Virus record (IMG/VR): IMGVR_UViG_3300043570_000998 | Coordinates: 25,843-89,842 of that record | Reading direction: 5' to 3' (one strand) | DNA: 64,000 bases | Origin: a virus | Shown: positions 46,344 through 61,709 of the stretch, piece by piece | Position numbering within the stretch: the stretch's first letter is position 1 | Layout: the number at the start of each line of letters is the position of its first letter | Notes under the pieces: model-generated | What the model was told of the DNA's origin: nothing | Databases searched by the model: none | What the model saw: the letters and a program-made list of their open reading frames with translations, nothing else | Translations under genes and position numbers: made by a program

Positions 46344-47057
46344 ATGAGAGACATTAAGACCTATGCCCAATTGCGTACCTACCTTAATGATGGTAAGCGT
46401 TCGCAGTCACCTAAGACACAGGCTGTTCTTAATATCTTAATCGATAATCCTACTGGAGTGTTTCGTTGTTGTCTTCGTGCTAGGCTACAGGAGCAGGGGA
46501 TTGATGTTGGTCAGCCAGCAGCACAGATCCGTGACCTTCGTGCTAGTGGAGTAAACATTCCCAAGCAACCTAGCAAGGGATACTGTGACACACATAACCG
46601 TACAGACACTCTTGATATGTTAGAAGCACCTTACATTACTGGCAATGATTATGCTCGTGCAATCTATAGCCCTAAAGAAATTAAATCTATTCAAACACTT
46701 CTTGGCAACACTGATGCATTTACAATGATTCGTGTCAGCACTGCACTTGAAGTGGACCATCGCATTCCTGTTGGTCGTATGATGCTCTCGGATGAAGTCA
46801 AGGAGTCTAGGGTTAACGCTACAGACTTTGAGGCGGTAAATAAACAATACCAACTTCTTACTAGAGAAACCAACCTATACAAATCACGTATGTGTGAACG
46901 TTGTGTAGATACAGAAACAAAGCCAGAAGCGTTCCTTGGCATTGAGATACCAAAGTCTATGGGTGGTAACCAACCATTTGTAGAAGGCAAGAATGATTGT
47001 TCGTCTTGTCCATTCGCATTCCCAGAGAAGTTCCGTTCACAAATTAAATTCGCATAG
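46344..47057 (+). CDS. HNH restriction-endonuclease-like protein (NlaIII/IceA/NspI/SphI-like)
   Basis: LEVDH...YQLL...N..K...CERC...CSSC...P..FR parallels NlaIII IEIDH...FQPL...N..K...CKAC...CVGC...P..YR (alignment from memory). Confidence 0.65.
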   Translation: MRDIKTYAQLRTYLNDGKRSQSPKTQAVLNILIDNPTGVFRCCLRARLQEQGIDVGQPAAQIRDLRASGVNIPKQPSKGYCDTHNRTDTLDMLEAPYITGNDYARAIYSPKEIKSIQTLLGNTDAFTMIRVSTALEVDHRIPVGRMMLSDEVKESRVNATDFEAVNKQYQLLTRETNLYKSRMCERCVDTETKPEAFLGIEIPKSMGGNQPFVEGKNDCSSCPFAFPEKFRSQIKFA

Positions 47058-48248: not shown

Positions 48249-48875
48249 ATGGAAACCACCCTAGTTAAATTGGTCCCATTGAAGGAAGGTCACGCCAGTG
48301 GTCTATACTTTAGCGTTGGGGCAAATGATAATGTGTTTCGTAATCTATTATGGGACACACCACAGTCAATCCTTGACTATGCCATAATCGTAAAGCAAAT
48401 CAAAAAGAATAATAATAAAAGCTTTGCGGTTATAGATAAAGCCACAAAACAAATTGTTGGCACAACATCCTATGTTGATTACTCCAAGCACGATAGGTCA
48501 GCAGAAATTGGCGGTACATTCTATTCAGAGTCAGTATGGAAAAGTCACATTAACACCCATAGTAAATACCTTATGCTGCAATATGCATTTGAGGTATTGG
48601 AGTGTGAGAGAGTAGCCTTCAAGACAGATGCACTCAACGAACGATCTCAGAAAGCAATCCTGCGTCTAGGTGCTACCTACGAAGGAACTAAGCGTCATAA
48701 CAAACTACGACCTGATGGAACCTGGAGAGACACCTCATACTTCTCTATTCTTGGAGATGAATGGGATGACATCAAAGCTACAATTTTCGGGGGAATTAAA
48801 AGTGATAACGAATATCCCCTATATAACAACATACCTATAACACCTATAGGAACATATAAGTCTATGTGGTTTTAG
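48249..48875 (+). CDS. GNAT acetyltransferase (RimJ/RimL family)
   Basis: AEIG..W...N..SK.L..YAFE..RV.FKTD.LN.RSQ.AI.RLGA.YEG..R....DG.WRDT. Confidence 0.88.
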   Translation: METTLVKLVPLKEGHASGLYFSVGANDNVFRNLLWDTPQSILDYAIIVKQIKKNNNKSFAVIDKATKQIVGTTSYVDYSKHDRSAEIGGTFYSESVWKSHINTHSKYLMLQYAFEVLECERVAFKTDALNERSQKAILRLGATYEGTKRHNKLRPDGTWRDTSYFSILGDEWDDIKATIFGGIKSDNEYPLYNNIPITPIGTYKSMWF

Positions 48876-49602
48876 GGATATAGAGCTGTTTGAGATCAAG
48901 GATAATAGCCCCACACAGCCCATTCTGAGGCTTCTGAGGACACATTTATCCACAGTTTTATCCACAATCATCTTACTGATATGGATATTATCTGACTGAA
49001 AGAGGATGTTGGATAAGTTGTTTGATGTACTGACTATATATAGTAGGCGTTCGTAATCCCAAACACTACATCTTGTGTCCCCATATACGCCAAACATCCC
49101 TTCTAGCACATCTACCCCCATTTGTCAACCCCTATATGTAGTGTATTTTATGCCCAGAAACCACTATATATTGTGTATAAACATATCAAAACATTCTATT
49201 TTATATCAGAAAATGTACAATTTGTGCAAGAATCTGGGAAAAATAATCAAGGGTTCGTAATGTCTATGTTTGTTATTATATAGGGGATAATGGGTATACT
49301 TAGCTGCCCCAAAATATTTATATCAAACCATCCTATTAGACATATCCACATTTCGGGGGTATCAAATAGAAGATCGTAATCCTTTAGTATATATATTACC
49401 TATAGGGGAAATACTCTATCATCTGATACCCTCCAAACTTTCTGGGATTTTTTGGAAAGGGTTCTTAATGTCTGTAGAATTTGGGAAATATATTTAGGGG
49501 TTCGTAATAGCTGTTCGTAAAGGTGTTTGTTAGTATGTTATAACATTTTGCGCAGCCACCTGGGGATAACTCTGTGGATAGAGCTACCCCCCTGTGGATA
49601 GA
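48876..49602. other. Non-coding convergence zone with DnaA boxes and TTCGTAA repeats (candidate origin or injection-control region)
   Basis: TTATCCACA at 48946 and 48958; TGTGGATAG at 49573 and 49593; repeated (GGG)TTCGTAAT; AT-rich. Confidence 0.55.
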
Positions 49603-49881
49603 TTACTCTGACTCTAGCGGAGTATCCCCTGTAGCCATAAGCAAATCGTCTAGCGAAATCCAGCCCTCGTCTTCTGTACCAAGACCAGAAAGCAAAAGGT
49701 CAAAGGTTTCGTCAATAAACTTATTGGACAATTCTGTTCCCTTGACAACTCCCTCGGACAAGGCATAAGCCAAAGGCAAGCCCATATCGTTATATTGGAT
49801 AAAGTCCTCGAACTGTTCATCATCACGAAAGTTTAGCCAAAGGTCAGCAAGGATAAGACACTTGTTCTCAAATGTAGTCAT
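49603..49881 (-). CDS. Acidic hypothetical protein
   Basis: ORF with RBS. Confidence 0.6.
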   Translation of the reverse strand: MTTFENKCLILADLWLNFRDDEQFEDFIQYNDMGLPLAYALSEGVVKGTELSNKFIDETFDLLLSGLGTEDEGWISLDDLLMATGDTPLESE

Positions 49882-50062
49882 TGTGTTTGCTCTCTTTCTC
49901 ATCTTTTAGAAAATCTGCCATAAGCAGGATACGGTTGATTGTTACATTGGGTGACAGTTGGTGAACATAAAGTGAAATCATTTCCAAATCCAAACGCAAG
50001 TCTGAAATCATATCTGATAATCGCTTTGCCACCTTTTCCTCGTCTGTTACTATTTTTCTCAT
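49868..50062 (-). CDS. Hypothetical protein
   Basis: TGGTATAAT promoter and GAGGAG RBS. Confidence 0.55.
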   Translation of the reverse strand: MRKIVTDEEKVAKRLSDMISDLRLDLEMISLYVHQLSPNVTINRILLMADFLKDEKESKHNDYI

Positions 50063-50085
50063 ATTACTCCTCAATCCATTATACC

Positions 50086-50200
50086 AAAAGTGGGGCAGGA
50101 ACGCAAGTGCTGAAAGGAATAAAGTCACTTACGTCCCCACCCAGTTTGTAGACGGAACCCCCATTCAACGTCTACTGTCCGTCACGCCATTGTGACAGGC
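50086..50200 (-). ncRNA. Three-hairpin structured RNA/terminator with anti-SD loop
   Basis: Stems CTGTCAC/GTGACGG, GTAGACG/CGTCTAC, GTGGGG-ACGTAAGTG/CACTTGCGT-CCCCAC, then T tract. Confidence 0.5.
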
Positions 50201-50207
50201 TATGTGT

Positions 50208-50543
50208 CTATATATAGTTAAGGGCTAGAGCACCTGGACGACGCTCTCCCAAATCGATCCCCTTGAGTATCTTACCAATACGACGTGTAGGAATCTTTAC
50301 CTCGTTGGCAAACACCCACCAGTCACTGCCGTACTCGTCCATAGGGAACTGGTCTGCAAGCCACTCAGTCTCATAGAAGTCACACTTGATGAGGACACCA
50401 GTTTCAATGTTACGAATACCTTCGTCATCCTCTTCCCTGATGTATACTTCAATGGTTAGTTTGTCATCCCACCAGGTCCCCAACTCTTTCGTGTAGAACT
50501 CCTTGTAGAACATATTTAGGTCTAGCGTTCTATACCCTCGCAT
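50208..50543 (-). CDS. Hypothetical protein
   Basis: RBS GAAAGG. Confidence 0.6.
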   Translation of the reverse strand: MRGYRTLDLNMFYKEFYTKELGTWWDDKLTIEVYIREEDDEGIRNIETGVLIKCDFYETEWLADQFPMDEYGSDWWVFANEVKIPTRRIGKILKGIDLGERRPGALALNYI

Positions 50544-50557
50544 AATTACCTTTCGAT

Positions 50558-51076
50558 TTAGAAGTGGAAGTCAACAGGGACAAGGAACCAAAGTGTACCG
50601 TTGTTGATACGGTCTTTAGTCATATGAACAGGATTAGTTGACCAGTTCTCAAGGTCAAAGAAGTAGGAGTTGAAGTCCCAGTTACCCTGAGCCATATCAA
50701 TCATCTTGCCGAGGGTATAGAGTTTCATAGAGTAGTCCATAGTACCGTCAAACTCATCAAAGTAAGAATCAAGATTGATGTTGCTCTGCTCCCACTCGGC
50801 ACGGTAACGACGGAATTCTGAAAGACGTGACTCAATGCATTCATCTAGAATCTTCTCGAATGCTTCACTATCTTTAGAAGAAACAACCATACTCTCGTCA
50901 CCGTCTTTGTATGGGTCAGCGTTAGGATTGAAACGTCCACCACCAGTTACGAACCAGTCGTACCAAGAAGTAGTGGAACCGTCATTGCCAAGCATTGATT
51001 CTAAAGTTGAACGAATACTGTAAATGGCTTCTTCAGGGGAATCAGCCTTTACTGCGATGTATTGTAGAACGTGCAT
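50558..51076 (-). CDS. Hypothetical protein (WYDWF.TGGGRF family)
   Basis: RBS; promoter TTGACA-N17-TATAAT at 51134-51106. Confidence 0.65.
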   Translation of the reverse strand: MHVLQYIAVKADSPEEAIYSIRSTLESMLGNDGSTTSWYDWFVTGGGRFNPNADPYKDGDESMVVSSKDSEAFEKILDECIESRLSEFRRYRAEWEQSNINLDSYFDEFDGTMDYSMKLYTLGKMIDMAQGNWDFNSYFFDLENWSTNPVHMTKDRINNGTLWFLVPVDFHF

Positions 51077-51397
51077 TTGTTTTTCCTTTTGTTGTAAGTT
51101 ATCTTATTATATCAAGATTCGGGGTTTTTGTCAAGAGGTTCGTAAGGGAACTTTGTCATTAGGTGTTCGTATGCTTCGACGATACCTTGCAGGTAGTCAG
51201 AACCTTGTCCATCTTGTAAGACAGACTCTTCCCAATCCTCAAGAACGTCAGGGTATTGATTAGTTATATAAGATAAGATCTGATTATCCATTACAGTTCT
51301 CCTACTACTACCTTGCCAAAACAATCAGTACAAAGATAGTTATAGTCTTCTACATCTGCATACACAGCATAATTGGTACATCCATTTATCTCACACA

Positions 51398-51565
51398 TTA
51401 TTCATTGTCCTGAATCTCAAAGTCCCACTCTGCGTGGTTCTTGTATGGGTCAAAGTCATCTAGAATCCAGTCGTCCAATGAGGCATAGGCTGCATCCTCA
51501 CTCTCTGCTTCAACAGGAACGAGATACTCAGTACGCACGGTTGCTGTGATTAGATATTTACGCAT
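51398..51565 (-). CDS. Small acidic protein (VEAESEDAA family; not in track)
   Basis: MRKYLITATVRTEYLVPVEAESEDAAY... Confidence 0.6.
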   Translation of the reverse strand: MRKYLITATVRTEYLVPVEAESEDAAYASLDDWILDDFDPYKNHAEWDFEIQDNE

Positions 51566-51800
51566 ACACCCTCTTATCGTCAGTTACAAATACATCTTCA
51601 ATCCACGGCTTCTCGGTAACGAAATAGCCAAGACGATTGAATCGGCGGTAGCCATTGGTTAGATTAGCGTACCGTCCATCTCCGTCAATCATTGTCCAAA
51701 CATAGTTAGGCAAAGTACCGTCAGGGATATCGTCAAGGTCATCGTAAGCCAATGGGGTAGTTGGCAGATAGGTGTCTTCCCATTCGTCCCAAGTAATCAT
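51558..51800 (-). CDS. Hypothetical protein
   Basis: VWT..DG...G...NRLGYFVTE.PW. Confidence 0.6.
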   Translation of the reverse strand: MITWDEWEDTYLPTTPLAYDDLDDIPDGTLPNYVWTMIDGDGRYANLTNGYRRFNRLGYFVTEKPWIEDVFVTDDKRVYA

Positions 51801-51991
51801 TACTCTACAATCTCCATTTCGATACAGTTATAAAGGTCTTCCCCTTGATAAGACATCTGAACTAGGTCTTGTGCCATAGTCTCTCTGAAATAATCTAGTT
51901 TCTCTTCTAGAGTTGCTTCCTCGCTAAACATCTCAAAGAGTGGGTCTTCGTCAAGGTTGAACTCAAAGGTAATAGTTCCTCGTGCAATCAT
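51800..51991 (-). CDS. Small acidic protein
   Basis: Coupled ORF. Confidence 0.55.
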   Translation of the reverse strand: MIARGTITFEFNLDEDPLFEMFSEEATLEEKLDYFRETMAQDLVQMSYQGEDLYNCIEMEIVE

Positions 51992-52152
51992 TACTTATCT
52001 CCAAAGTTATTGCTGTCATAGGGGTCAATCATTGCTTCCCAATCACCGTCAGGCATATCTTCGTGCTGAATGATAGCCAACTCGATTGCTTGCTCTTCGC
52101 TATCTGCTTCTACCCAATAGGTAGCATTGTATTCTACTTGATAAGTCTTCAT
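51991..52152 (-). CDS. Small acidic protein (VEADSEEQA family; not in track)
   Basis: MKTYQVEYNATYWVEADSEEQAIE..., RBS GAGGAG. Confidence 0.6.
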   Translation of the reverse strand: MKTYQVEYNATYWVEADSEEQAIELAIIQHEDMPDGDWEAMIDPYDSNNFGDK

Positions 52153-52323
52153 CTTACTCCTCGTCCATAAATTTGATGAATGTCTTTATTAGGTTTAGTC
52201 CAATTATAGCATTGAGGTACGACACGGAACTATCGTTCAGCAACTCGTCAATCTTGGTCGTAATCTCTTGCTTGACAGATTCCCTGGATTCTAAAATGGC
52301 ATCCGTAATCATTTCTCTGCTGG

Positions 52324-52554
52324 TCATAAGGACACCTTCCCATAGTCGTCAAATTCTTCAGCCTTGCCCTCGTCTTCCCAATCTGAATTGAGACTCCAGT
52401 TCTTAGCATCATCGTTGAAAAGACTAATAAGCATATTCTGAGATTCATCATCAAACCTGCCAATGTCCCACTCGTCCGTGCCTACAATAGCAAACTTGAT
52501 TTCGGCAGGGTATTTGTTGTGGTCATAAATATAAACCATTACCTTAGTACTCAT
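52324..52554 (-). CDS. Small acidic protein
   Basis: RBS GGAGAGG. Confidence 0.55.
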   Translation of the reverse strand: MSTKVMVYIYDHNKYPAEIKFAIVGTDEWDIGRFDDESQNMLISLFNDDAKNWSLNSDWEDEGKAEEFDDYGKVSL

Positions 52555-52610
52555 TGCTCATATCCTCTCCACAGAACATACAGTAGTCACCGTCATTAGG
52601 GACACAGTTA

Positions 52611-52823
52611 TCACTCTTCATCTTCAGGCTCACATTCACACTCTTCAATGTCTGATTCACAGTCTTCACACACTTCTCCATCTTCTTCAATCTCTAACTC
52701 ATCAGTACCGTGATAGTAGTCATTGAGATTTTTGAGGAAGATATCATAAGCCTCATCTTCAGTTTCAGCAATGATACCCTCAGCCACATATTCATATGTA
52801 GCACGAACATCAAACTTCTTCAT
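52611..52823 (-). CDS. Very acidic small protein (IAETEDEA family)
   Basis: First gene after cassette promoter. Confidence 0.6.
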   Translation of the reverse strand: MKKFDVRATYEYVAEGIIAETEDEAYDIFLKNLNDYYHGTDELEIEEDGEVCEDCESDIEECECEPEDEE

Positions 52824-53004
52824 TTCATACCTTTCATTAGGGGATACTTCTATTATACTGCGTACCACCGACATAAAACAAGAGGAATTCGGGTGATTTT
52901 TTTAGAGGTTCGTAATTGATTTTTAATGATTAACTATCTATGTTTAGAAATTTTGGGGCGCAGCTCCTGTGGATAACTTATCCCCAATCGATCCCCCTAG
53001 GGGG

Positions 53005-53031
53005 AGGCAGTTTAGACTGTTGCCTAGCAGT
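53005..53031 (-). ncRNA. H-type pseudoknot motif, copy B
   Basis: ACTG-CT-AGGCA-A-CAGT-CTAAAC-TGCCT. Confidence 0.65.
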
Positions 53032-53037
53032 TAGGGA

Positions 53038-54060
53038 TTAGACTCCCAGCATTACGGAAGCAACGACACGAGCAAGACGGTTCTTCTCTGCCGTGATAGC
53101 AGGGTCAAAACCACTAGCACCAGCCAAGATGTTTTCGGTGTTACCACCACGAGCAGTCCTGTGCCAATCAAGGCGTTCGGTGAGAGCGTTGAGAGTACCC
53201 CACGCCGTTCCTGTAATCGTGTTGTTGAAGTCACCAACATAAATGTCGTTGATGAGGTCAATCTTGTTCTCGTGCTTTTTGAACGAACCCTTGCTATCCT
53301 TTTCAGGAGCAGGGTAAGCGAGAGCAACAATCTGGTCAAACTCTGCCTTTGTGACTTCGGTTTCAATCATAGCGTTAGCCATAATGGAAAACTCGTCAAG
53401 GTAAGTCTGTGCCAAGCCCAATGCTTCACGAGCAACTTGAACCTTACCGTCAGCAGTCTGCGTGTGACGGATTTTGAACGACTGCTTGACATTACGCCAC
53501 TTGCCAACTCCGCCACCAAGAGCAAGGTTGAGAGTGTTAGCACACACAACACGAACAGGCGTGATACTTGCCATAATGGAGATAGAGCCGTCGTGACTTG
53601 TGTTGATGAGTAGGTAGTTGTCAATCTTGTCAGCACGACCATTAGGGTCAAGCGTGATTGAATTGTCAAGAGCAAGCGAGCCAAAGACTACACGACCACC
53701 CTTGATTGAACCAGCGGTTTCCCAACGACCACCACCGTCAAGCAGGTTGTCACCAAAAGTGAACAAGTCCTCGTTTTGGAGAGTGTGGTATCGTTCTCCA
53801 ACTACGCCAAGCACATCATTCTGTGTCTTGTCAAATGGGTTAGTACGGCAGACAAAGTAGTTTGTCTTGTCCGATACATATCCCTCTGGAAATGACAGTT
53901 CTTCCAAACGGACATTCCAATTATCAAGGTGAGCGAGTTTGAGCATTTCGGAAGTCTTTACTTCCTCTTCAAACACAGTACCCAACTTGTGCCAAGCAGG
54001 TTCTCGCAAAGAAGCAAAAGCCACTTCGCCATTAGCACCAATTTCTAAATCGTGAGCCAT
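53038..54060 (-). CDS. DUF932-family (phage/plasmid) protein
   Basis: PAWH.LG, ETAGS..GG, YLL..SHDG, RVVCANTL, GTAWG..NA..E. Confidence 0.85.
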   Translation of the reverse strand: MAHDLEIGANGEVAFASLREPAWHKLGTVFEEEVKTSEMLKLAHLDNWNVRLEELSFPEGYVSDKTNYFVCRTNPFDKTQNDVLGVVGERYHTLQNEDLFTFGDNLLDGGGRWETAGSIKGGRVVFGSLALDNSITLDPNGRADKIDNYLLINTSHDGSISIMASITPVRVVCANTLNLALGGGVGKWRNVKQSFKIRHTQTADGKVQVAREALGLAQTYLDEFSIMANAMIETEVTKAEFDQIVALAYPAPEKDSKGSFKKHENKIDLINDIYVGDFNNTITGTAWGTLNALTERLDWHRTARGGNTENILAGASGFDPAITAEKNRLARVVASVMLGV

Positions 54061-54369
54061 TGTATACCTTTCGTTTTGTTGTTAGTTCTATTATACAGCC
54101 GACCACCGACATATAACTATTTCAGGGAACATTTTGGGAGCTTCGTAACCTAACCGTAATAAGTATGTTCTAACAAATCGGGGGCGCAAATCGATCCCCT
54201 ACCCATACAAAAATCCCCCTGTTTACCAGCAGTCTATCCAGACCACTTCACAGGGGGACTAATGTGTGAAAGTTTATTTTAGTAAAGACCCATCATTTCA
54301 CCGTAGTAACTTCTTTACCTAGACAGTTCCTATATATCAACTGACAACTTCAACCTCTGTTTCAAGGTG

Positions 54370-54441
54370 CGATTTCACAGGGACTCGAACCCTGACTACT
54401 ACTTCGACAGAGTAGCGTGATAACCTTTTCACTATGAAACC
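54370..54441 (-). tRNA. Second, divergent tRNA-Asp(GTC)
   Basis: GGTTTCA/TGAAATC acceptor; CTACT-CT-GTC-GA-AGTAG; CAGGG-TTCGAGT-CCCTG. Confidence 0.8.
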
Positions 54442-54468
54442 TAGTGTATCTCTATGTAGTTTTAGATT

Positions 54469-54496
54469 GGGTAGTTTTATGTGATACCCAGCACAT
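54469..54496 (-). ncRNA. H-type pseudoknot motif, copy C
   Basis: ATGTG-CT-GGGTA-T-CACAT-AAAAC-TACCC. Confidence 0.65.
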
Positions 54497-54501
54497 TCTC
54501 G

Positions 54502-54951
54502 TTAGAGAAGTTCCAGAACCGAATTGTAGGTTGAGGAAGTAACGAACTCTTGCGGAGTAAGACGGAGAAGAGCGAGTGTCTTTTCCAACTCTTGGAGTTT
54601 GCTTGCCGTTCCGCCGTATCCGCTAGGGCTGTTTGGTTCGACAGGTGGCTTTCCCAAGTCAAACTGCTCAATGAGGTTAGCCCCAACTGTCAGGTCTAGA
54701 TTACCGTTGTATCCACGATTTGAGATACGAATGGTGTCTACCCACTCACCCTCAAAGATTTCCTGCCCACCAACAGTAATAATGTTGGCAACCATTTCAG
54801 CAATACGCTTGGTGTAAGCCTTGCGTTCGTACTTGTATTCCTCAACCTTTGTGGGGTATTCAGCGATTTCAGTTTTCAGTTGTGCTACCTTGTCCTCAAC
54901 CATTGTGAGAACACTTGCGGTAGGGATTTTTACAGAGATACTGCGAGCCAT
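54502..54951 (-). CDS. Hypothetical protein
   Basis: RBS GAAAGGA after cassette promoter. Confidence 0.65.
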   Translation of the reverse strand: MARSISVKIPTASVLTMVEDKVAQLKTEIAEYPTKVEEYKYERKAYTKRIAEMVANIITVGGQEIFEGEWVDTIRISNRGYNGNLDLTVGANLIEQFDLGKPPVEPNSPSGYGGTASKLQELEKTLALLRLTPQEFVTSSTYNSVLELL

Positions 54952-55024
54952 TTGTTTAGTCCTTTCTATTGGCTGTATTACTATTATACTGTGGGGGTAT
55001 GACATATAACTATTGAGTTAGAGT

Positions 55025-55051
55025 GGGTAGTTTAGTCTGATACCCAGCAGA
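55025..55051 (-). ncRNA. H-type pseudoknot motif, copy D
   Basis: TCTG-CT-GGGTA-T-CAGA-CTAAAC-TACCC. Confidence 0.65.
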
Positions 55052-55056
55052 TACGA

Positions 55057-55209
55057 TTACTTGGAAGTAACCGTAGTCCAACGAGGCTGTCCAGCAACAT
55101 CAAGACGGACACGGAATGAACCGTTTGCGTTCTTGACAATCTCCTGAACCGTTCCCGAAACACCAGACTTCTGCGTGGTGAGGGTCGAACCGATTTCGAT
55201 TTCCGACAT
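55057..55209 (-). CDS. Small SH3-like protein
   Basis: 50 aa; two tandem upstream promoters (TTGACA-N17-TATAAT 55293-55265 and cassette promoter 55383-55362). Confidence 0.6.
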   Translation of the reverse strand: MSEIEIGSTLTTQKSGVSGTVQEIVKNANGSFRVRLDVAGQPRWTTVTSK

Positions 55210-55483
55210 ATTATTACCTTGCTTCCTTGTAGTGAGCCAACTTGTTGTTTGCTTCGTTATTACCATTATACAGGCTGGGAAAGAGTTTGTCAAGCCTTTT
55301 CTCAAAGTTTTTTATTTATTTTGTGGGGACTTCCGACTTCGTTTCCCTTGCCTGTAATACAAGTATACCAACGACCACCGACATATAACTAATCGAATCT
55401 GGAGATTTTTGTAACAGTTCGTAACTTGTTTGTCATAACAAAGGGGTGCGCAGGTCCACCGATCTTGGCAGGGTACTAAGAAA

Positions 55484-55514
55484 GGACAGTTTATAAAGGT
55501 CATATCCAGGACCT
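55484..55514 (-). ncRNA. H-type pseudoknot motif, copy E
   Basis: AGGTC-CT-GGATA-T-GACCT-TTATAAAC-TGTCC. Confidence 0.6.
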
Positions 55515-55562
55515 ATCACCACTGCAGGAAAGGACAAGAATACTACAGTGGGAGACTAGCGG

Positions 55563-55967
55563 CTATATCTCTTCAATATTATCAACTTCAAATGAGTGAA
55601 CAGTAAAGTCTTCAACCTCAGTATTGAAGGCATCCATTCTAACATCTTCAATTGAAAGGCTGTCAACATCGAAGTTTGAAGGAACCAGCAATGTTGCTTC
55701 CGCAGTAAGAGAAATGCTAACGGTGATTTCTTTCAGGAGCGAGAGAGCAAACACATCGGCAATAGAATTTGCCAAAATATTTACGTCAACGTCTTCACTT
55801 TGCTCAATCGACAAAGCGTCCAAAAGAATCAATCGAACATTCTCCACGTCCTGAGAGTAGTCCTGCTTGATACGGTCATTGTCATTACGAAGTGATTTGA
55901 CTTCAAATTCCAACAACTCAATCTGTCGTCGTAGGTTTGTAAGTACTGGGTGCTGATTGTCTTCCAT
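55563..55967 (-). CDS. Acidic hypothetical protein
   Basis: Coupled ORF. Confidence 0.6.
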   Translation of the reverse strand: MEDNQHPVLTNLRRQIELLEFEVKSLRNDNDRIKQDYSQDVENVRLILLDALSIEQSEDVDVNILANSIADVFALSLLKEITVSISLTAEATLLVPSNFDVDSLSIEDVRMDAFNTEVEDFTVHSFEVDNIEEI

Positions 55968-56227
55968 TAGTTGTCCTCTTCCATTCCACCGATTTCGATA
56001 AGTTCACCAATAGTTGCGGTAAGAGCGGTGAAGTCCTCTTCCGACAGTAGGAGTTCTGACATAGCAAATGCCATAAGCCCTGTGATTGTTTGTCCAAAGT
56101 TATTCAGGGCATAGTTACGCTCGTCTTCTGTTTCTGCTTCCATTACAAGAAAGCCAGCGTACATAACCATAGGGTCTACGGCAATATCTTCACTTACTTT
56201 TCGTAGAGCAAATGCCTTGTCTAACAT
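55967..56227 (-). CDS. Acidic hypothetical protein
   Basis: First gene after cassette promoter. Confidence 0.6.
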   Translation of the reverse strand: MLDKAFALRKVSEDIAVDPMVMYAGFLVMEAETEDERNYALNNFGQTITGLMAFAMSELLLSEEDFTALTATIGELIEIGGMEEDN

Positions 56228-56919
56228 ATTTGTCCTCTCGTTGTTTATATTATAATTATACAGGTGACCTACGACATCAAACTCTGGGAATCTGGACAGT
56301 TAGTCGTAATTCTTAATAACGGTTTGGTAACGAGGTGGGCGCAGCTCCCTCAGTCAGCCATCACCAAACGATGTTCAGCCACAGAGTCATAGATAAATGC
56401 CTTTGGGTAAAAATCCTTGACACCATTCAGAAATAACTCTGCCTGTTCCAAGTGACGGAACGTTGCCAACTTGCCATCGGTGTCGCCATTCCAAACCTGA
56501 TACTTCAATACATAGTCAGTCATTATATTCCCCTATCTCCGTGCTACCCTCAATAAATTCATAGTCGTTTGCGTTGGGGAACTGAGTGTATTCCATATTG
56601 TCCAACACAAAGTCAAGGTCATTAGTGTCCACAACAAATGTGTGATGAACGGTTATTAGATGTTTAGTCATTAGTAGTCCTCTCCGAACATATTCAGTAT
56701 AGCAAGTACCTCGTCTTTTGTCAAGGCTTCGACACGTTCCCAGTCAATTACGTTTTCCCAATTCATTACTTATCCTTTTCTTCACATTGATTACAGTATC
56801 CCCATAGGGCAAATTGTTCACAGTCTTCCATTACTGTTCTCCAAACGTAGGGTCGCAGGGGTAGCAATAAGGCTCTCCCTCGTCACGATTAGTTTCATTA
56901 GCACAAGAGTCACACTTCA

Positions 56920-57192
56920 TTAGTCCTCGTCCTCTAAGAATCCCTCTAAGCGGTGTTGTTCGATAAAAGTCCAAGCGTCTACAAACTGACTGTCACGATA
57001 CGTCACGCCCATTGGCAATTCGATAACCTCGTTGTAGTCACCTTGATTACACGCCACGATTGCGGCGACGGCAGACTGAACCATAAACTGCGGAATAGGC
57101 GGATACACATTAGAGGCAAAGTGAAGACTCACCATATCCTCTAATTGGATATCGCCTAATTCTTTGATACCCTCTACAAACATTCTTCCCAT
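56920..57192 (-). CDS. Hypothetical protein
   Basis: H...N.YPPIP motif; RBS GAAAGGAA. Confidence 0.65.
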   Translation of the reverse strand: MGRMFVEGIKELGDIQLEDMVSLHFASNVYPPIPQFMVQSAVAAIVACNQGDYNEVIELPMGVTYRDSQFVDAWTFIEQHRLEGFLEDED

Positions 57193-57365
57193 TGTGTTCC
57201 TTTCATCGATAGTCTAATTATACAGGGTAGCACCGACATATAACTATGCCAGATACATTTCTACTAGGTATAGGTCCTCGTCGTGCTCAGGGCAGACTGC
57301 TGAATACCCTGGCGATACGCCATAGTAAACAACGGCGGTATCACATCGGTTACAGTATCGTTTCA

Positions 57366-57644
57366 TTAGTGCTTAGCCAGCCATAACTCTATGTTGTTAG
57401 CAATATCCCAGATAGCAAGTTGGTTGTGCTTGTTGCCCAAGTCTATTGCTTCTGTAACATCAGCAACCCATACGGTGCGGTCATAGTAAGTTACGCCAGA
57501 CACAGGATTAGTCCACACGCCCACATACTGCCCCTCTATGATATTTTCAGGGGTAGTGTTATAGAGAGCCACCCAATATCCACTAGTGGCACTAGTGATA
57601 AGAGTAAACTCGTCACCGTCTTTGATATAAGTTCCGTCGTTCAT
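57366..57644 (-). CDS. Hypothetical protein (NQLAIWD family)
   Basis: RBS GAAAGGAC. Confidence 0.65.
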   Translation of the reverse strand: MNDGTYIKDGDEFTLITSATSGYWVALYNTTPENIIEGQYVGVWTNPVSGVTYYDRTVWVADVTEAIDLGNKHNQLAIWDIANNIELWLAKH

Positions 57645-57840
57645 TGTTGTCCTTTCGTTGGTATATCTCCATTATAGCGTGTACCTATGACATATAACTC
57701 TGGGATTTCGGGAAACGAATCGTAAGGTTAGTAATAGAGTTTATTGTGACAGGGAGGGCGCAAAATTTTTGATCCCTAGCTATTGAGCCACGCCAGCAGG
57801 AGGGTTAGTCCTGCCAGCGTAGCAACAATAAGAATTTCCA

Positions 57841-58017
57841 CTACTGTTCGCCATTCCAACAAGCGGAGATGAAACGGTCAGCCATAAACCGTTCATTGTC
57901 CTCTGCCATTATTCCTGCGAAGTCGTGAATGAGAGTGTCAAAAGTATTCTCGTCAATTTTGAGAGCGTAACAGTTGAGCAGTTGTGAGATAGTCACATAG
58001 TCTTTGCGTGTCATCAT
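57841..58017 (-). CDS. Hypothetical protein (MTRKDY..N.RF...RF..AC family)
   Basis: Coupled ORF. Confidence 0.6.
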   Translation of the reverse strand: MMTRKDYVTISQLLNCYALKIDENTFDTLIHDFAGIMAEDNERFMADRFISACWNGEQ

Positions 58018-58214
58018 TAGGATACACTCACCCATTCCATAGCGGTACGCAAAAGGTTGTCATAGTCACCAGACATAGATTGCGTAGTGTATTCGTTGAT
58101 TTTATCTTTGGTAACGCCACCCTTGCGGAGAGCATTGGATACAGCACCCATAATTGCGAATGCGTTTCCGTCTTGTCCTGTGAGTTGTACTTCGATTTCT
58201 GGATACTTTACCAT
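58017..58214 (-). CDS. Hypothetical protein (DGNAFAIMG..SGDYD.LL family)
   Basis: Motif common in phage early regions. Confidence 0.65.
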   Translation of the reverse strand: MVKYPEIEVQLTGQDGNAFAIMGAVSNALRKGGVTKDKINEYTTQSMSGDYDNLLRTAMEWVSVS

Positions 58215-58417
58215 TAGTTGTTTTCCTTTTTTTGGTCGGCAATATAAGTGTTGAGAAAAATCAGTCGTTCCATTGACTCTGCCGAAACGCCTACCGAAAG
58301 AGCACCAGCCAATCTTGCGTAGAATGTGTGATTGTCAGGCTCTTCTGCTCTAATAATTTTACGCAAACGGTCATACTGTTCTTGTGTTGCTGGATTTTCG
58401 GGGAGTGAACCATTCAT
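58214..58417 (-). CDS. Hypothetical protein, paralog of 59771-59959
   Basis: Shared MERLIFLNT. Confidence 0.6.
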   Translation of the reverse strand: MNGSLPENPATQEQYDRLRKIIRAEEPDNHTFYARLAGALSVGVSAESMERLIFLNTYIADQKKENN

Positions 58418-58546
58418 TTTGTTGTCCTTTTCTTTGTTCATATTATTATTATACAGCAGGGGTACGACATATAACTATTCATTTTGGGGAAAACGCAACG
58501 ATCTTCTTAATTACGCAACAAACCTGCGTGGGCGCAGCTCCCCTGC

Positions 58547-59098
58547 CTAGATTGCCGACCCTCTCACGACAATCCAAATCAGAGCCTGTGCGGTGCGAGG
58601 TGTCAGACCAAACTCACCAGCGACCTGAACGACTGCCTGACTAATGGCGTGATACTGTCCCTGCGTAGGGCTGTCGTTTTTCATCTGGGCTGCTCTCATC
58701 ATCCACACATCTACAACCACAGCGTCAGTGTCGCCAGCAATAGCCTTAGCGAATGCGTTAGTTTTGAGACCCTTGAGAGCGTCAATGCCACCTGCCAACA
58801 CATCGTTAGCCATTTTAGTATTGTTCTTTAGACCAGACACAGAGTGTCCAAGCGAGAACGCCACTGCCTTAGTCACGTTAGACGACCAACGCTCACGTGG
58901 GGAGAATGCGGAAACAACGCCAGCACCAATCTCAAGCGAGGCGTTTAGGTTGTGAGCGACTGCCTGTGCCACTTCCTGTGCTTCGTGATACCAGACACTA
59001 GCCTGTTCGACCTGTCCAAGTGTCGCCTTGAGAATGAGCGAACGGAACAAATCCGTAGAGGTAGCGGTTACGATTTCGTTTGCGGTGAGAGTAGTCAT
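58547..59098 (-). CDS. Hypothetical protein, possible HhH DNA-glycosylase-like fold
   Basis: WY..A, SP..W..N, K..AF, VVVDVWM.R, QA..W. Confidence 0.5.
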   Translation of the reverse strand: MTTLTANEIVTATSTDLFRSLILKATLGQVEQASVWYHEAQEVAQAVAHNLNASLEIGAGVVSAFSPRERWSSNVTKAVAFSLGHSVSGLKNNTKMANDVLAGGIDALKGLKTNAFAKAIAGDTDAVVVDVWMMRAAQMKNDSPTQGQYHAISQAVVQVAGEFGLTPRTAQALIWIVVRGSAI

Positions 59099-59247
59099 TA
59101 CTTTGTCCTTTGTTTGGTTGATAGTTCTATTATACATTCGACCTACGACATATAACTAGCAAAATTCCAGGGTATTTTTAATGCTTACGTAATTAAAGCA
59201 AGGATCTAAAATTGCGCCCACCCTGTGCGTAACCTTGGGGATAACCC

Positions 59248-59577
59248 CTAACGGTTAGCGTTGTGGCAACCAGCACACCGACCAGTGGAATCTCCATTGA
59301 GATAGAATAGACCGTTCACAGCGTAGTCGCACACAGCACAGATAGCATACATATCAGGAATGTCCTCGTCAGTGTCACAGTCACACACAGAATAGTTAGA
59401 GTAACAAAACGCACAGATAAGCGACCTGTCCAAGTCCTCGTTGATACATCCGCAGTAAATATACTGAACGCCACAGTTGCCACAGTGAGTAGAGGTGTCC
59501 CAAGCCGACTGAGGCTCTGTGACCATAGTTCCCATAGCCGTCTGGTAGAAATCTGAGTGAGTGTTTGAGTAAGCCAT
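59248..59577 (-). CDS. Cys-rich hypothetical protein
   Basis: Multiple CxxC/CxC motifs. Confidence 0.55.
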   Translation of the reverse strand: MAYSNTHSDFYQTAMGTMVTEPQSAWDTSTHCGNCGVQYIYCGCINEDLDRSLICAFCYSNYSVCDCDTDEDIPDMYAICAVCDYAVNGLFYLNGDSTGRCAGCHNANR

Positions 59578-59770
59578 TTGCTTTTGTCCTTTCGTTATAT
59601 CAACAGTATACCATTGACCACAGACATATAACTCTGGGGAATAGGAAAATGTTTTCTTAATTCGTAAATATGTTATAAAAAATTTTGGGGCGCAAATTTT
59701 GCAAAAATCTTGCGTGGGGAGAGGATTGTTTGCTCTTGCGAGGCTCACCTCTCCCCAAACTTATACGAAA

Positions 59771-59959
59771 CTATTTCGTGTTGAGAAAAATAAGTCGTTC
59801 CATAGCGTCACGCTCTACGCCTACGGTGAGTATTCCCGAAAGTGTTGCGTACAACATTTCGTTATTGTAAGTTGGGTACTGCTCACGAATGAGAGTTTTG
59901 AGTTTCTCGACTTGTTCCGTAGTGGCGAATTGACGAGGGAGAGAATCTGCGTTTGTCAT
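59771..59959 (-). CDS. Hypothetical protein, paralog of 58214-58417
   Basis: Shared MERLIFLNT. Confidence 0.6.
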   Translation of the reverse strand: MTNADSLPRQFATTEQVEKLKTLIREQYPTYNNEMLYATLSGILTVGVERDAMERLIFLNTK

Positions 59960-60013
59960 TTTTGTCCTTTTCTTTGTTATATTTACATTATACCGTAGGG
60001 GTACGACATCAAA

Positions 60014-60178
60014 CTATTCGTTTTCACGAATGGCTTGTGTCTGGATAGCCTTGCGAGTACGCAAACGGTTAGGGCGATTGTCGTGAGTGCCAGCCGCAGA
60101 CGAGCGACGGAGTTCACGCATAGCCTCAATGTATGGCTTATTCTCAATGCCTTTGTGAGTTGGGTTCTTTTTCTTCAT
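60014..60178 (-). CDS. Small basic protein (leaderless)
   Basis: ELRRS.AAG.H..R..R.RTR motif. Confidence 0.6.
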   Translation of the reverse strand: MKKKNPTHKGIENKPYIEAMRELRRSSAAGTHDNRPNRLRTRKAIQTQAIRENE

Positions 60179-60509
60179 AGTATTAGTATACATCAGACCA
60201 CCGACATATAACCCCCCCAATTCGGGGAAACGCAATAATCCTTCGTAACTCGCAAAAATATTGCGTGGGCGCACCCTGTGGATAACTTATACACATTCCA
60301 TTTTTGGCATATGTCGATCCGCCTATTGTTCCAAATAGCACGAGAGGCAAATATCATAGGGGATAAATTCCTTAGACTGCTCGCTTACTTTTCTTCCACA
60401 GTCATTACATTTAGTCATTTAGTTTACCTTCGATTAGCAACGCGATTAGATAGACGGTAGCGAAAATAGTTAGGATAAATCCGATATTGGATATGAGCAT
60501 TCCCATAGC

Positions 60510-60692
60510 CTATCGTTTCATCAACTGACGAGTGAGCGTTAGGGCTTCCTCGAAATCGTGATTCGTGAATACATTACCCTTAGCCAAACGGATAAGAGAA
60601 TTTAGACGGAGAGCCTTTTGCTTAGGCGTGAGAGCGTTGATATTGATATCCTCTGTTTCGTTGATATCAATTTCAATTTCTAATTCATTCAT
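60510..60692 (-). CDS. Hypothetical protein
   Basis: RBS AAAGGAC after cassette promoter. Confidence 0.55.
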   Translation of the reverse strand: MNELEIEIDINETEDININALTPKQKALRLNSLIRLAKGNVFTNHDFEEALTLTRQLMKR

Positions 60693-60746
60693 TTTATTCT
60701 GTCCTTTGTTTATATCTTGATTCTATCAGAGGGGTATGACAGGTAA

Positions 60747-60884
60747 CTAGACTACCTGACCACAACCTGAGCAGTAGAGAGGAGAGAGATATTTTTCTCC
60801 ATACTCCAAGTGTCCAGCAGTAGAACCACATTCACACTTTATAGAGAACCTAGCCACTTGGCAGGTATTCATCCATTCATTCAT
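60747..60884 (-). CDS. 45-aa Zn-ribbon microprotein (not in track)
   Basis: MNEWMNTCQVARFSIKCECGSTAGHLEYGEKYLSPLYCSGCGQVV. Confidence 0.65.
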   Translation of the reverse strand: MNEWMNTCQVARFSIKCECGSTAGHLEYGEKYLSPLYCSGCGQVV

Positions 60885-61092
60885 TTTAGTTTTCCTTTCT
60901 TTTTCTTTCTATATCTTTATTCTAGCAGTGACCTACGACATATAACTAACTATATGGCGTAACATTAGGTAACAGAATGGTAACGAATATGGGGAACTTA
61001 TACGCACCTCGTAACGCTGCCTGTGGATAACTTTTGGGGCGCATTTTCTTGTGCATAACTTATACACACCCCTTGCTAGGGGCGGTAGTTAG

Positions 61093-61233
61093 TTAGTGTT
61101 GCTTACCGCAACCATCACAGTATGAGTATGAGAGATACACTTCACCATATTCTAGGTGAGCACTAGTAGCACCACATTCACAGTTGTAAGAGAATCCGTT
61201 ACCTACTGGGCAACTATTTTTGAATTCATTCAT
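61093..61233 (-). CDS. 46-aa Zn-ribbon microprotein, paralog of previous (not in track)
   Basis: MNEFKNSCPVGNGFSYNCECGATSAHLEYGEVYLSYSYCDGCGKQH. Confidence 0.65.
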   Translation of the reverse strand: MNEFKNSCPVGNGFSYNCECGATSAHLEYGEVYLSYSYCDGCGKQH

Positions 61234-61583
61234 TATTTTCTATCCTTATCTGAAACCTTGATATTTATTTGCTCTGATACTTACTTGCTAGGCTCACCTT
61301 GCGGATTATTTGCTAGGCTCATTATCTGAGGCTCACTATCTTTGGTTTCTCTGTTTATCTTTATATATTTAGTGTAACATCGACCTACGACATATAACTA
61401 CCCAAAACAGGCTAAAAATAGGGAAAACGCAATAATGTTGCGTAAGAGTATAAACAACGCAAGAAAATTTTGGGGCGCAAATTTTTATTTATTTTATTAT
61501 TTATCGGCGTGTCGTTTAGTTAGATGGGGTAGGTAGGTGCTATGCTTATAGTATAGAAAGAAACAAAAGAAAGGAAAACTAAA

Positions 61584-61709
61584 ATGAATGAAATCAAAAA
61601 GTTTGAACAAGATGTTTACTGCACAGATTGCGGTAAGTATGTTGGAACTAGTGTTCACTATGGACAGTATGCTCCAAACTTTACGGGCGAATGCCCTAGG
61701 GGTTGCTAG
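61584..61709 (+). CDS. 41-aa Zn-ribbon microprotein (not in track)
   Basis: RBS GAAAGGAA; MNEIKKFEQDVYCTDCGKYVGTSVHYGQYAPNFTGECPRGC. Confidence 0.55.
   Translation: MNEIKKFEQDVYCTDCGKYVGTSVHYGQYAPNFTGECPRGC

What the first reader, a model, noticed from the sequence alone, without database searches (positions are those of the whole stretch)
49550..61478. GCGC is absent from the window except once per repeated cassette
Seen (manual scan of CGC contexts): I found 12 GCGC sites in 64 kb, at 49550, 52958, 54184, 55448, 56339, 57758, 58532, 59214, 59690, 60269, 61039 and 61475. None lies in the first 49.5 kb or in a coding sequence I accept. All sit in a GGGCGCA-like box, about 60-100 nt upstream of a cassette promoter (except 49550). 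Roughly 100 would be expected at ~40% GC. Known: GCGC is the HhaI/HinP1I restriction-methylation site. Inference: a site purged genome-wide is retained at regular intervals in one region. It may be a decoy or methylation sensor, a deliberate cleavage point next to damage-responsive promoters, or the core of a protein-binding or recombination site.
Basis: partly seen in the sequence, partly recalled or inferred. Interest (0 to 1): 0.85.

Follow-up and report, generated by a model that had tools for sequence, protein, structure and literature searches.

The report
Private boundary word of phage cassettes
In this uncultured lake phage the restriction-type word GCGC has been removed everywhere except at the start of each small promoter-gene cassette, where it is the core of a short boundary signal that sister phages replace, in all their cassettes at once, with a different word.

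Summary
GCGC occurs 12 times in the window and in the whole 89.8-kb virus record, at the stated places. About 72 are expected. With the 12 boxes masked, the 12-kb cassette array holds 0 GCGC against 13-15 expected.

Each site is the core of a word, usually T-GCGC-CCC. In 11 of 12 cases it lies 61-97 nt upstream of a PafBC/RecA-NDp-like promoter core on the minus strand.

Related lake-phage records decide the reading.
- All eleven fully fetched records lack GCGC outside the array, apart from 1 site in G006 and 3 in G010.
- Five of these, and three partial contigs, keep GCGC once per cassette.
- The others carry a different word at the same joints: CCCGAG/CTCGGG, GCCCGAC, TTGGGCAA or GGTGCCC. 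The word is uniform within a record.
- Sister phages G005 and G001 differ in it.

Cassettes are permuted between relatives, and homology often breaks at the word.

So GCGC is kept because it belongs to a functional, lineage-private boundary word. This is most likely a docking site for a reader I could not identify. A decoy or methylation sensor is less likely.

Earlier follow-ups of this scan reported the same 'private GC word' on other DNA. I found no paper describing it.

The parts
49550..49553 (-). GCGC box at the far (3') end of the minus-strand cassette array; no PafBC-like core within 160 nt
   Evidence: orthologous terminal box in G001 (CTCGGG), G002, G004 and G005 (GCGC):
52958..52961 (-). 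GCGC box, TTATCCACAGG just upstream (minus strand); promoter core 52852-52874
54184..54187 (-). GCGC box; promoter core 54090-54112
   Evidence: orthologous joints in G002, G004, G005 (GCGC) and G001 (CCCGAG):
55448..55451 (-). GCGC box; promoter core 55362-55384
   Evidence: ortholog G005:6262 (GCGC) against G001:73364 (CCCGAG):
56339..56342 (-). GCGC box 8 nt after a TGA stop; promoter core 56255-56277
57758..57761 (-). GCGC box; promoter core 57671-57693; one end of a natural 807-nt cassette deletion
58532..58535 (-). GCGC box 12 nt after the stop of the 196-aa DUF7178 gene; promoter core 58448-58470; other end of the 807-nt deletion
59214..59217 (-). GCGC box in flipped polarity (GGCGCA on the minus strand); promoter core 59129-59151
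59690..59693 (-). GCGC box flanked by A/T runs; promoter core 59603-59627
60269..60272 (-). GCGC box, TTATCCACAGG just upstream; promoter core 60185-60207
61039..61042 (-). GCGC box; promoter core 60919-60941 (97 nt away)
61475..61478 (-). GCGC box at the head of the array; promoter core 61371-61393
52203..60009 (-). four PafBC-like promoter cores without a box or upstream module (52203-52225, 54983-55005, 57217-57239, 59985-60009); they follow coding sequence directly

Best explanation
The 12 GCGC are the invariant core of a short GC-rich boundary word, usually T-GCGC-CCC on the transcribed (minus) strand. This word opens each full promoter cassette of the phage's accessory and early gene array.

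A cassette reads, in the direction of transcription: boundary word; an operator-like palindrome; TTACGAA-type repeats; a CCCGAAAT motif; a PafBC/RecA-NDp-like promoter; then one to a few small genes.

The genome is otherwise cleared of GCGC, and also of CATG, CCGG, GGCC and most CGCG. That is ordinary restriction avoidance. The word survives because it is a working cis element that has to be the same in all cassettes of one genome.

The most likely mechanism (inferred, not shown) is that the word is the docking site of one sequence-specific DNA-binding factor. The factor would mark or insulate the upstream edge of each cassette. I could not identify it.

Because a lone mutant copy would no longer match, single sites cannot be purged one by one. 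Lineages escape only by switching the word in all cassettes together, as sister phages have done: to CCCGAGC, GCCCGAC, T-run-GGGC-A-run or GGTGCCCC. The same edges are where cassettes are gained, lost and permuted between relatives.
For: Shown:
(1) Exact count, and the purge holds inside the array.
(2) Anatomy. 11 of 12 boxes lie 61-97 nt upstream of a TGTC...-N8-TAnnnT core. Of 15 such cores on the minus strand of 49-62 kb, 4 lack the box and the whole upstream module.
(3) Conservation against counter-selection. Of 11 fully fetched records, G000, G002, G004, G005 and G010 have 12, 13, 13, 11 and 18 GCGC. All lie in their arrays except 3 in G010. G001, G003, G007, G008 and G009 have 0 and G006 has 1. 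Partial contigs L040/L072, L077 and L078/L085 also carry GCGC near promoter cores: 13 of 21, 6 of 6 and 20 of 22 sites have a core within 150 nt.
(4) Replacement at the same joints, uniform within a genome. G001 has 14 CCCGAG/CTCGGG, all in its array; G003 has 2; contig 3300007708_000018 has 12; contig 3300028569_001031 has 8. G006 has 14 GCCCGAC/GTCGGGC. G007 has 12 (+1) TTGGGCAA/TTGCCCAA. G008 has 12 GGGCACC/GGTGCCC. All 11 G005 boxes pair best with a G001 box region; most of these alignments carry flanks on both sides of the box, in which GCGC is exchanged for CCCGAG or CTCGGG.
(5) Fast, repeated switching. G001 (CCCGAG) and G005 (GCGC) are sisters, with Pol III alpha branch lengths of 0.0024 and 0.0039, nested among GCGC phages. 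G010 (GCGC) is sister to G006 (GCCCGAC). G003 (CCCGAG) lies elsewhere.
(6) Boundary role. 47 of 541 blastn HSP ends lie within 10 nt of a box, against a random mean of 9.6 (max 20 in 1000 trials). Of 81 junction comparisons, 58 are non-colinear. In 30 of those 58 the downstream homology starts within 12 nt of the box, and in 6 it starts at its first base. Four of the 30 sit at the -12 limit of the query. Two natural contigs join window 57737 to 58545 and 60295 to 61492; every end lies within 25 nt of a box. The first join carries a CTCGGG word in between.
(7) Both polarities occur. GCGC boxes: 51 (T/C)GCGCC against 13 (T/G)GCGCA out of 64 after orienting each box by its C-run. G001: 8 against 5. 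G006: 8 against 3. G007: 6 against 3. This fits a DNA-level reading rather than an RNA-level one.
Against: - No reader was found. No gene co-varies with word type in presence/absence, identity or discriminating-column screens. The records are only 28-87% complete by the tool's estimate.
- Uniformity could come from gene conversion between repeated modules, without any reader.
- In the more distant relatives (G006, G007, G008, G010) the distance from word to promoter varies from 19 to 98 nt. The word is therefore not a phased promoter sub-element.
- HSP ends at the box may be partly an artefact. All modules resemble one another downstream of the box and are unrelated upstream of it, so blast extension tends to stop there. 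My only counter is qualitative: orthologous cassettes share cassette-specific module sequence from the box onward.
- GCGC, CYCGRG and GGYRCC are classic restriction words (names recalled), and GCGC and CCCGAG recur in separate clades. A link to restriction enzymes is not excluded.
Confidence: 0.5

Rival explanations
1. Recombination core. The word is the crossover point (or the microhomology anchor) at which self-contained promoter-gene cassettes are inserted, deleted and permuted, as with PeSL elements of T4-type phages or, more loosely, integron attC sites. The word must be identical in all cassettes because exchange happens between copies.
For: Breakpoints of permuted cassettes and of natural deletions fall at the word. 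The word is uniform within a genome and differs between genomes. The phage encodes RecA, a RuvC-like resolvase and a weak PD-(D/E)XK hit. PeSL precedent: abstracts of PMC2839356 and PMC4122927.
Against: No tyrosine or serine recombinase in 5 records that are 66-87% complete. A 4-8-nt word is too short for RecA-type homology on its own. Evolvability gives no immediate benefit that would hold 12 restriction sites against a purge that removed all the others. The breakpoint signal may partly be an alignment artefact (see best explanation).
Confidence: 0.2
2. Restriction-modification-coupled element. The word is the target of a strain-specific host (or unseen phage) methylase or nuclease, and its modification or cutting state gates the neighbouring damage-type promoters.
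For: Three of the word types contain classic type II words that are purged elsewhere in the family: GCGC, CYCGRG (0-1 outside arrays in G000, G002, G004, G005) and GGYRCC (0 in G000, G001, G004, G005, G006, G007). GCGC and CCCGAG recur in separate clades, as if drawn from a limited list. No phage-encoded reader was found, which would fit a host-encoded one. Both polarities are allowed.
Against: Other word types are not palindromes: GCCCGAC, and T-run-GGGC-A-run, which is one base away from T-run-GCGC-A-run. Five of six types share a GCCC/GGGC core, which suggests one kind of reader whose specificity drifts. In G008 the GGYRCC word is not purged outside boxes: 3 sites in the remaining 23 kb. 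The absence of CCCGAG elsewhere is weak evidence, because all CCCG is about 5-fold depleted. No C5 or N4/N6 methylase in 5 records. A phage cut at 12 sites is dead, so a benefit from cleavage is hard to see.
Confidence: 0.12
3. Localized nick sites. A phage nickase cuts one strand at each word in packaged DNA, as in T5, phiKMV-like phages and Pseudomonas phage tf.
For: The T5 major-nick consensus is quoted as R/GCGCRGG, and tf has 14 sites of a private 9-mer that its relatives replace with a variant (passages read in PMC3517423). Here the + strand reads G-GCGC-A in 9 of 12 boxes, and 11 of 12 share one polarity in G000.
Against: The GG of the T5 consensus is absent. In the known cases all sites lie on one strand. 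Here both polarities occur in every type. No nickase candidate was found: HNH hits in 1 of 5 records, not G000. Only assembled contigs were available, so nicks could not be seen.
Confidence: 0.08
4. No function of its own. The word is a passenger of a repeated promoter module. It is kept uniform by gene conversion and is replaced when a variant that lacks the currently restricted site sweeps through the copies.
For: The modules are repeated 11-15 times and clearly recombine. The conversion-like tract between G005 and G001 covers the box plus about 25 nt. Word changes remove restricted sites, for example GCGC to GGGC in G007.
Against: The rest of each module has diverged strongly between cassettes, while the word is 100% kept: 12 of 12, 13 of 13, 13 of 13 and 11 of 11. 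Without function the cheapest escape is any point mutation in each box, which would give mixed decayed boxes. None were seen in 11 records. GCGC persists in lineages as far apart as G000 and G010, whose Pol III alpha is about 82% identical.
Confidence: 0.1

Closest known systems
PeSL (promoter-early stem-loop) mobile regulatory cassettes of T4-type phages (PMC2839356, PMC4122927; abstracts and outlines read)
   Same: Small repeated regulatory units between non-essential ORFan genes in a hyperplastic region. Insertions, deletions and swaps between close relatives break at the repeated unit.
   Different: The promoter here is PafBC/RecA-NDp-like, not sigma-70 early type. No strict hairpin precedes the box in G000: 0 of 12, against a random mean of 0.7. 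The unit opens with a 4-8-nt word that is private to each lineage and switches in concert. I did not see that described in the parts of those papers that I read.
Stoperators of Cluster A mycobacteriophages (PMC6550527; passages read)
   Same: An actinobacterial-phage precedent for many copies per genome of a short non-promoter DNA word in gene gaps, with a consensus that differs between related phages and matches their own repressor.
   Different: Stoperators are 13-14 bp, number 20-30, are spread over the whole genome and mostly share one orientation. Their reader (the immunity repressor) is known. Here the core is 4-8 nt, there are 11-15 copies confined to one array, both polarities occur, and no repressor or integrase was found.
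Restriction-site (palindrome) avoidance in phage genomes (general knowledge, recalled)
   Same: Complete or near-complete loss of CATG, CCGG, GGCC, GCGC and CGCG, plus several 6-mers.
   Different: The interest lies in the exception: one purged word survives only in a functional box.
Localized single-strand interruptions of T5, phiKMV-like phages and phage tf (PMC3517423; passages read)
   Same: About a dozen copies of a private word. Relatives use a variant word. T5's consensus contains GCGC.
   Different: All known sites lie on one strand. Here both polarities occur, and nicks could not be tested.
PafBC-dependent (RecA-NDp) promoters of Actinobacteria (PMC8635444, PMC11804915, PMC6789036; search listing only; the consensus is recalled)
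   Same: The cores downstream of the boxes fit TGTC(G/A)GTG-N8-TAnnnT and lack a -35.
   Different: No upstream element at about -95 is known to me for PafBC promoters. The box is not part of that core, and 4 cores work without it.

Membership tests
Restriction-site avoidance | Short palindromes far below Markov expectation genome-wide | tested here: met
   In G000: CATG 0/289, CCGG 0/51, GGCC 0/89, CGCG 7/43, GCGC 12/71. Similar in 10 relatives.
PeSL-type mobile regulatory cassette | Repeated promoter unit between ORFan genes in a variable region | tested here: met
   15 core promoters in 12 kb. Of 20 cassette ORFs scanned in Pfam, only DUF932 and DUF7178 pass the cut-off.
PeSL-type mobile regulatory cassette | Terminator stem-loop joined to the promoter | tested here: not met
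   0 of 12 G000 boxes have a perfect hairpin (at least 5 bp, loop 3-8) ending within 25 nt upstream. The figure is 6 of 14 in G006 and 6 of 12 in G007. Terminator-like sites in the array: 8, against 8.6 in shuffles. Longer-loop hairpins exist before some boxes.
PeSL-type mobile regulatory cassette | Indels and swaps between relatives break at the unit | tested here: met
   with the caveat about blast extension.
Stoperator / operator array with cognate repressor | 13-14-bp asymmetric site, 20-30 copies genome-wide, one orientation | tested here: not met
   Information is confined to about 7-8 positions. Copies occur only in the array. Both polarities occur.
Stoperator / operator array with cognate repressor | A repressor gene that co-varies with the site | tested here: inconclusive
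   None found, but the records are incomplete.
T5-type localized nick site | Consensus R/GCGCRGG, all sites on one strand | tested here: not met
   R-GCGC-R in 9 of 12 boxes but no GG. Flipped copies occur.
T5-type localized nick site | Physical nick in virion DNA | not testable with these tools
   Only Logan contigs were available.
Integron-like attC cassette array | Tyrosine recombinase beside the array | tested here: not met
   PF00589: 0 of 5 records. PF00239: 0 of 5. Records are 66-87% complete.
Methylation-gated promoter (Dam/mom-type logic) | A methylase of matching specificity | tested here: inconclusive
   Phage: PF00145 0 of 5, PF01555 0 of 5. The host is unknown, so its enzymes cannot be tested.
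PafBC/RecA-NDp promoter | TGTC(G/A)GTG, 8 nt, TAnnnT, no -35 (consensus recalled) | tested here: met
   11 cores downstream of boxes and 4 more without boxes. Dependence on PafBC was not tested.

The most novel reading that the evidence does not exclude
The boundary word is the target of a restriction-type enzyme: a nickase, a cutter or a methylase. The enzyme would be host strain-specific, or phage-encoded in the unseen 13-17% of the genome. The word sits about 95 nt upstream of promoters built like those of PafBC, an activator switched on by single-stranded DNA. A nick, cut or modification mark at each word would then gate the whole cassette array. The phage would carry its own 'damage signal', or a memory of its last host. 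Word switching between sister phages would track the enzyme repertoire of the host population.
Probability: 0.1. Interest if true: 0.85.

Novelty: new variant of a known kind. Interest (0 to 1): 0.6.

Why it matters
It shows selection holding a dozen restriction sites in a genome that has otherwise removed every copy. That makes an unknown cis element stand out. The family gives a natural experiment: the same joints, at least five interchangeable words, and switches between near-identical sister phages. This points to an unidentified sequence-specific reader, or an unusual concerted-evolution process, in abundant freshwater phages that are probably actinobacterial. If a reader exists, its word-switching could define incompatibility or 'immunity' groups among co-circulating lytic phages. 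The words are also easy markers for cassette boundaries in metagenomic phage annotation.

Tried and rejected
Near-identity search of the array against cultured phages: no match.

Search for a phage gene that tracks word type:
- Presence/absence screens.
- Identity anomalies between G005 and G001.
- The one strong anomaly is a 245-aa ORF in a glycosyltransferase cluster. It has two alleles that do not follow word type; G004 (GCGC) shares the G001 allele.
- Discriminating-column screen over 94 families. The top hits are mutually divergent tail-region proteins, with G001-G003 only 32-39% identical, so I read them as chance.

Pfam and PHROG scans of candidate ORFs gave ThyX, GroES, a DenV-like glycosylase, GNAT, glycosyltransferases, DUF932 and DUF7178. 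None is a DNA-binding regulator.

Whole-record family searches:
- Phage_integrase: 0 of 5.
- Resolvase: 0 of 5.
- HNH: 1 of 5 (G002 only).
- C5 methylase: 0 of 5.
- N4/N6 methylase: 0 of 5.

Other ideas tested:
- Terminator idea: simple terminator scan 8 against 8.6 expected, with only the box at 58532 inside a small hairpin. Strict hairpin test 0 of 12 in G000.
- Helical phasing idea: 60-64, 70-73 and 78-83 nt peaks appear in the close group, but the distance ranges from 19 to 98 nt in distant relatives. Dropped.
- Rfam: only a tRNA in the array.

Sequencing runs: 24 lake-water or metagenome runs hold the stretch, all as Logan contigs. No RNA holder is listed. Reads that could show nicks, ends or expression were not available.

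Literature. A search for 'restriction site avoidance' + bacteriophage + GCGC + intergenic listed nothing on retained sites in cassettes, in the 10 of 96 hits shown. No other search on this specific point was made, so 'not in print' rests on that search plus the PeSL, stoperator and PafBC searches.

Its repeated word AAGCTT follows hairpins, is not depleted, and no PafBC-like core was found in the right arm with my pattern. It is a related design at most.

Full report
**What the window is.** The window is bases 25843-89842 of an 89,842-nt IMG/VR virus record, estimated 83% complete. It encodes a DnaB-type helicase, a Pol III alpha polymerase, class Ib ribonucleotide reductase, primase, RecA, a RuvC-like resolvase, a terminase-like protein, an M23 endolysin, ThyX, GroES and a glycosyltransferase cluster. 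The best cultured match of the polymerase is Streptomyces phage BillNye at 55.6% identity. The DNA is found in lake-water metagenomes. The promoter type described below fits the PafBC/RecA-NDp promoters of Actinobacteria.

**The observation.** The whole record has no further copy. Expected numbers are 72 +/- 8 by dinucleotide shuffles of the window and 71 by the Markov estimate for the record.
- The genome also has 0 CATG (289 expected), 0 CCGG (51), 0 GGCC (89) and 7 CGCG (43).
- It has no CYCGRG, GGYRCC, CGATCG or GCAGGC.
- This is broad restriction avoidance.
- The array is not simply an un-purged region. With the 12 boxes masked, the stretch 49,500-61,600 has 0 GCGC against 13-15 expected, and none of 500 simulations gave 0.

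**Anatomy.** The genes of 49.6-61.4 kb lie on the minus strand. Read on that strand, each box is usually T-GCGC-CCC. Then come about 60 nt with an operator-like palindrome (TTTGT-N4-ACAAA or ACGCAA-N5-TTGCGT type), one or two TTACGAA-like words and a CCCGAAAT-like word. Then comes a core ATGTCGGTGGTC-N5-TATAAT, a GGA-rich ribosome site and a small gene.
- The distance from box to core is 61-64 nt in 7 cases, then 71, 81, 83 and 97 nt. The box at 49550, at the far end of the array, has no such core.
- Four further cores lack the box and the whole upstream module. They follow coding sequence directly.
- A TTATCCACA word (DnaA-box type, name recalled) lies just upstream of some boxes. There are 5 in the window, 3 of them beside boxes.
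- Most cassette genes have no family. DUF932 and DUF7178 are the only solid hits among 20 ORFs.

**Relatives.** Two pattern scans of IMG/VR with the promoter core found related contigs. Ten records were fetched whole.
- All eleven records, G000 included, lack CCGG. All lack GGCC except G003 (29) and G008 (1).
- Outside their arrays they have almost no GCGC: 0 in nine records, 1 in G006 and 3 in G010.
- Inside the arrays they fall into classes.

| Boundary word | Records | Copies |
|---|---|---|
| GCGC | G000, G002, G004, G005, G010 | 12, 13, 13, 11, 15 |
| GCGC | contigs L040/L072, L077, L078/L085 | 21, 6, 22 sites |
| CCCGAG/CTCGGG | G001, G003 | 14, 2 (array cut by the contig end) |
| CCCGAG/CTCGGG | contigs 3300007708_000018, 3300028569_001031 | 12, 8 |
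| GCCCGAC/GTCGGGC | G006 | 14 |
| TTGGGCAA/TTGCCCAA within T-run/A-run | G007 | 12 |
| GGGCACC/GGTGCCC | G008 | 12 |
| GCCTCGGC | G009 | 1 (array cut) |

- GCGC phages have no CCCGAG/CTCGGG, and CCCGAG phages have no GCGC.
- Oriented logos show information only in the word and one or two neighbours: tGCGCCCc, gCCCGAGCC, GCCCGACC, GGTGCCCCC and TTTTTGCCCAAAAA.
- Five of the six types contain GCCC/GGGC.
- In the G010 group the box reads T-run-GCGC-A-run. G007 differs from that by one base.

**Same joints, different word.** Each of the 11 G005 boxes finds its best partner at a G001 box. In most of these alignments recognisable flanks carry on both sides of the box, while GCGC is replaced by CCCGAG or CTCGGG. 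In the clearest case the changed tract is the box plus about 25 nt. Trees of Pol III alpha, the terminase-like protein and the DUF932 protein put G001 and G005 as sisters on very short branches, inside a group of GCGC phages. They pair G010 (GCGC) with G006 (GCCCGAC) and put G003 (CCCGAG) elsewhere. So the word has switched several times, quickly and in all cassettes of a genome. I saw no array of mixed type. The one exception is a cassette of contig 3300028569_001031 with a GC-rich insert next to its CCCGAG.

**Boundary role.** Cassette order differs between relatives. For example, one unit of G005 matches G004 from box to next box inclusive but sits in another place.
- HSP ends pile up on boxes: 47 of 541 within 10 nt, against a random 9.6 (max 20).
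- Of 81 junction comparisons with both flanks matched, 58 are non-colinear. In 30 of those the downstream homology starts within 12 nt of the box. Six start at its first base, and four sit at the limit of the query. In 16, both flanks end within about 36 nt of the box.
- In lake contigs, one variant joins 57737 to 58545, removing the unit between two boxes and carrying a CTCGGG word at the joint. Another joins 60295 to 61492. Two other long joints, 54497-55073 and 55116-57212, are not at boxes.
- Caveat: all modules look alike downstream of the box and unlike upstream of it. Blast extension alone would therefore tend to stop at the box. Orthologous units do share unit-specific module sequence from the box onward, which speaks for real co-travel, but I did not quantify it.

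**What it is most likely doing.** A word kept at 100% in every cassette, against a purge that removed about 70 other copies, is under selection. Sister phages use other words, some of them non-palindromic and in both polarities. What is selected is therefore a match, not GCGC as such. The match is either to one reader or among the copies.
- I favour a sequence-specific DNA-binding reader that marks or insulates the cassette edge. The stoperator system of Cluster A mycobacteriophages is a precedent for private multi-copy words matched to a phage protein.
- No integrase, resolvase or methylase genes were found in five records that are 66-87% complete.
- A crossover-site role, as in PeSL elements, is the main rival.
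- A tie to restriction-type enzymes or to T5-like nicks remains possible but fits fewer facts.

**Novelty.** Earlier follow-ups of this scan, on other genomes, describe the same design ('private GC word joining phage early-gene cassettes', cassette swaps at boundary elements, PafBC-type phage promoters). I reached the reading from my own calls before seeing them, and they are not independent proof. This window adds three things:
- the clean case in which the private word is itself a fully purged restriction word;
- the reciprocal GCGC/CCCGAG exclusion;
- the sister pair G001/G005.

In the literature I searched I found PeSLs, stoperators and nick sites as the nearest kinds, and nothing on this.

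Noticed in passing
whole record; window 46344-47057 (+): CATG is completely absent (0 of about 289 expected). It is also 0-1 in G002 and G004, but 28-164 in G001, G003 and G005-G010.
   Followed up: partly
window 55293-55265, 51134-51106, 56724-56696 (-): Three consensus sigma-70-type promoters (TTGACA-17-TATAAT; 12, 12 and 11 of 12 matches) lie inside the array, beside the PafBC-like class.
   Followed up: no
window 54370-54441 (-): A tRNA gene sits inside the cassette array (Rfam 62.8 bits). In G010 a tRNA-like sequence directly precedes one box.
   Followed up: no
window-wide; 48788-61684: CCCG/CGGG is about 5-fold depleted (21 against 117 expected in G000). About half the survivors lie in the array, in the TCCCGAAAT promoter-upstream motif. 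This is a second purged word kept in the cassettes.
   Followed up: partly
L104 (Streptomyces phage BillNye NC_042105.1, 80001-127084): 25 of 43 AAGCTT directly follow a perfect GC-rich hairpin in the gaps between small genes (random 1.2, max 5). AAGCTT is not depleted there. GATC is 0 of about 265 expected in the 92 kb read. TTCGTAAAGG and ATCTCGGGAG are also repeated.
   Followed up: partly
L013 about 9183-9290 (IMGVR_UViG_3300028569_001031): One cassette of a CCCGAG-type phage has a GC-rich insert with four GCGC, a CGCG and a GGCGCC right beside its CCCGAG box. It is the only mixed joint seen.
   Followed up: no
G007 and G010 (whole records): These two relatives also lack every GATC (0 of 79 and 0 of 180 expected) and every AGCT (0 of 107 and 0 of 288). 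G008 lacks GATC too (0 of 82). The set of avoided words differs between lineages.
   Followed up: no
window 36590-40146 (-): A four-gene glycosyltransferase cluster. Its 245-aa member exists as two alleles about 52% identical that are shuffled among otherwise close phages, independently of word type.
   Followed up: partly
G006 44432-44451 and 45369, 46245, 46856; G008 20274, 20627, 21402: In some cassettes of distant relatives the word is the 3' arm of an inverted repeat (GCCCGAC-6 nt-GTCGGGC), or follows a conserved small CACGC...GCGTG hairpin.
   Followed up: no
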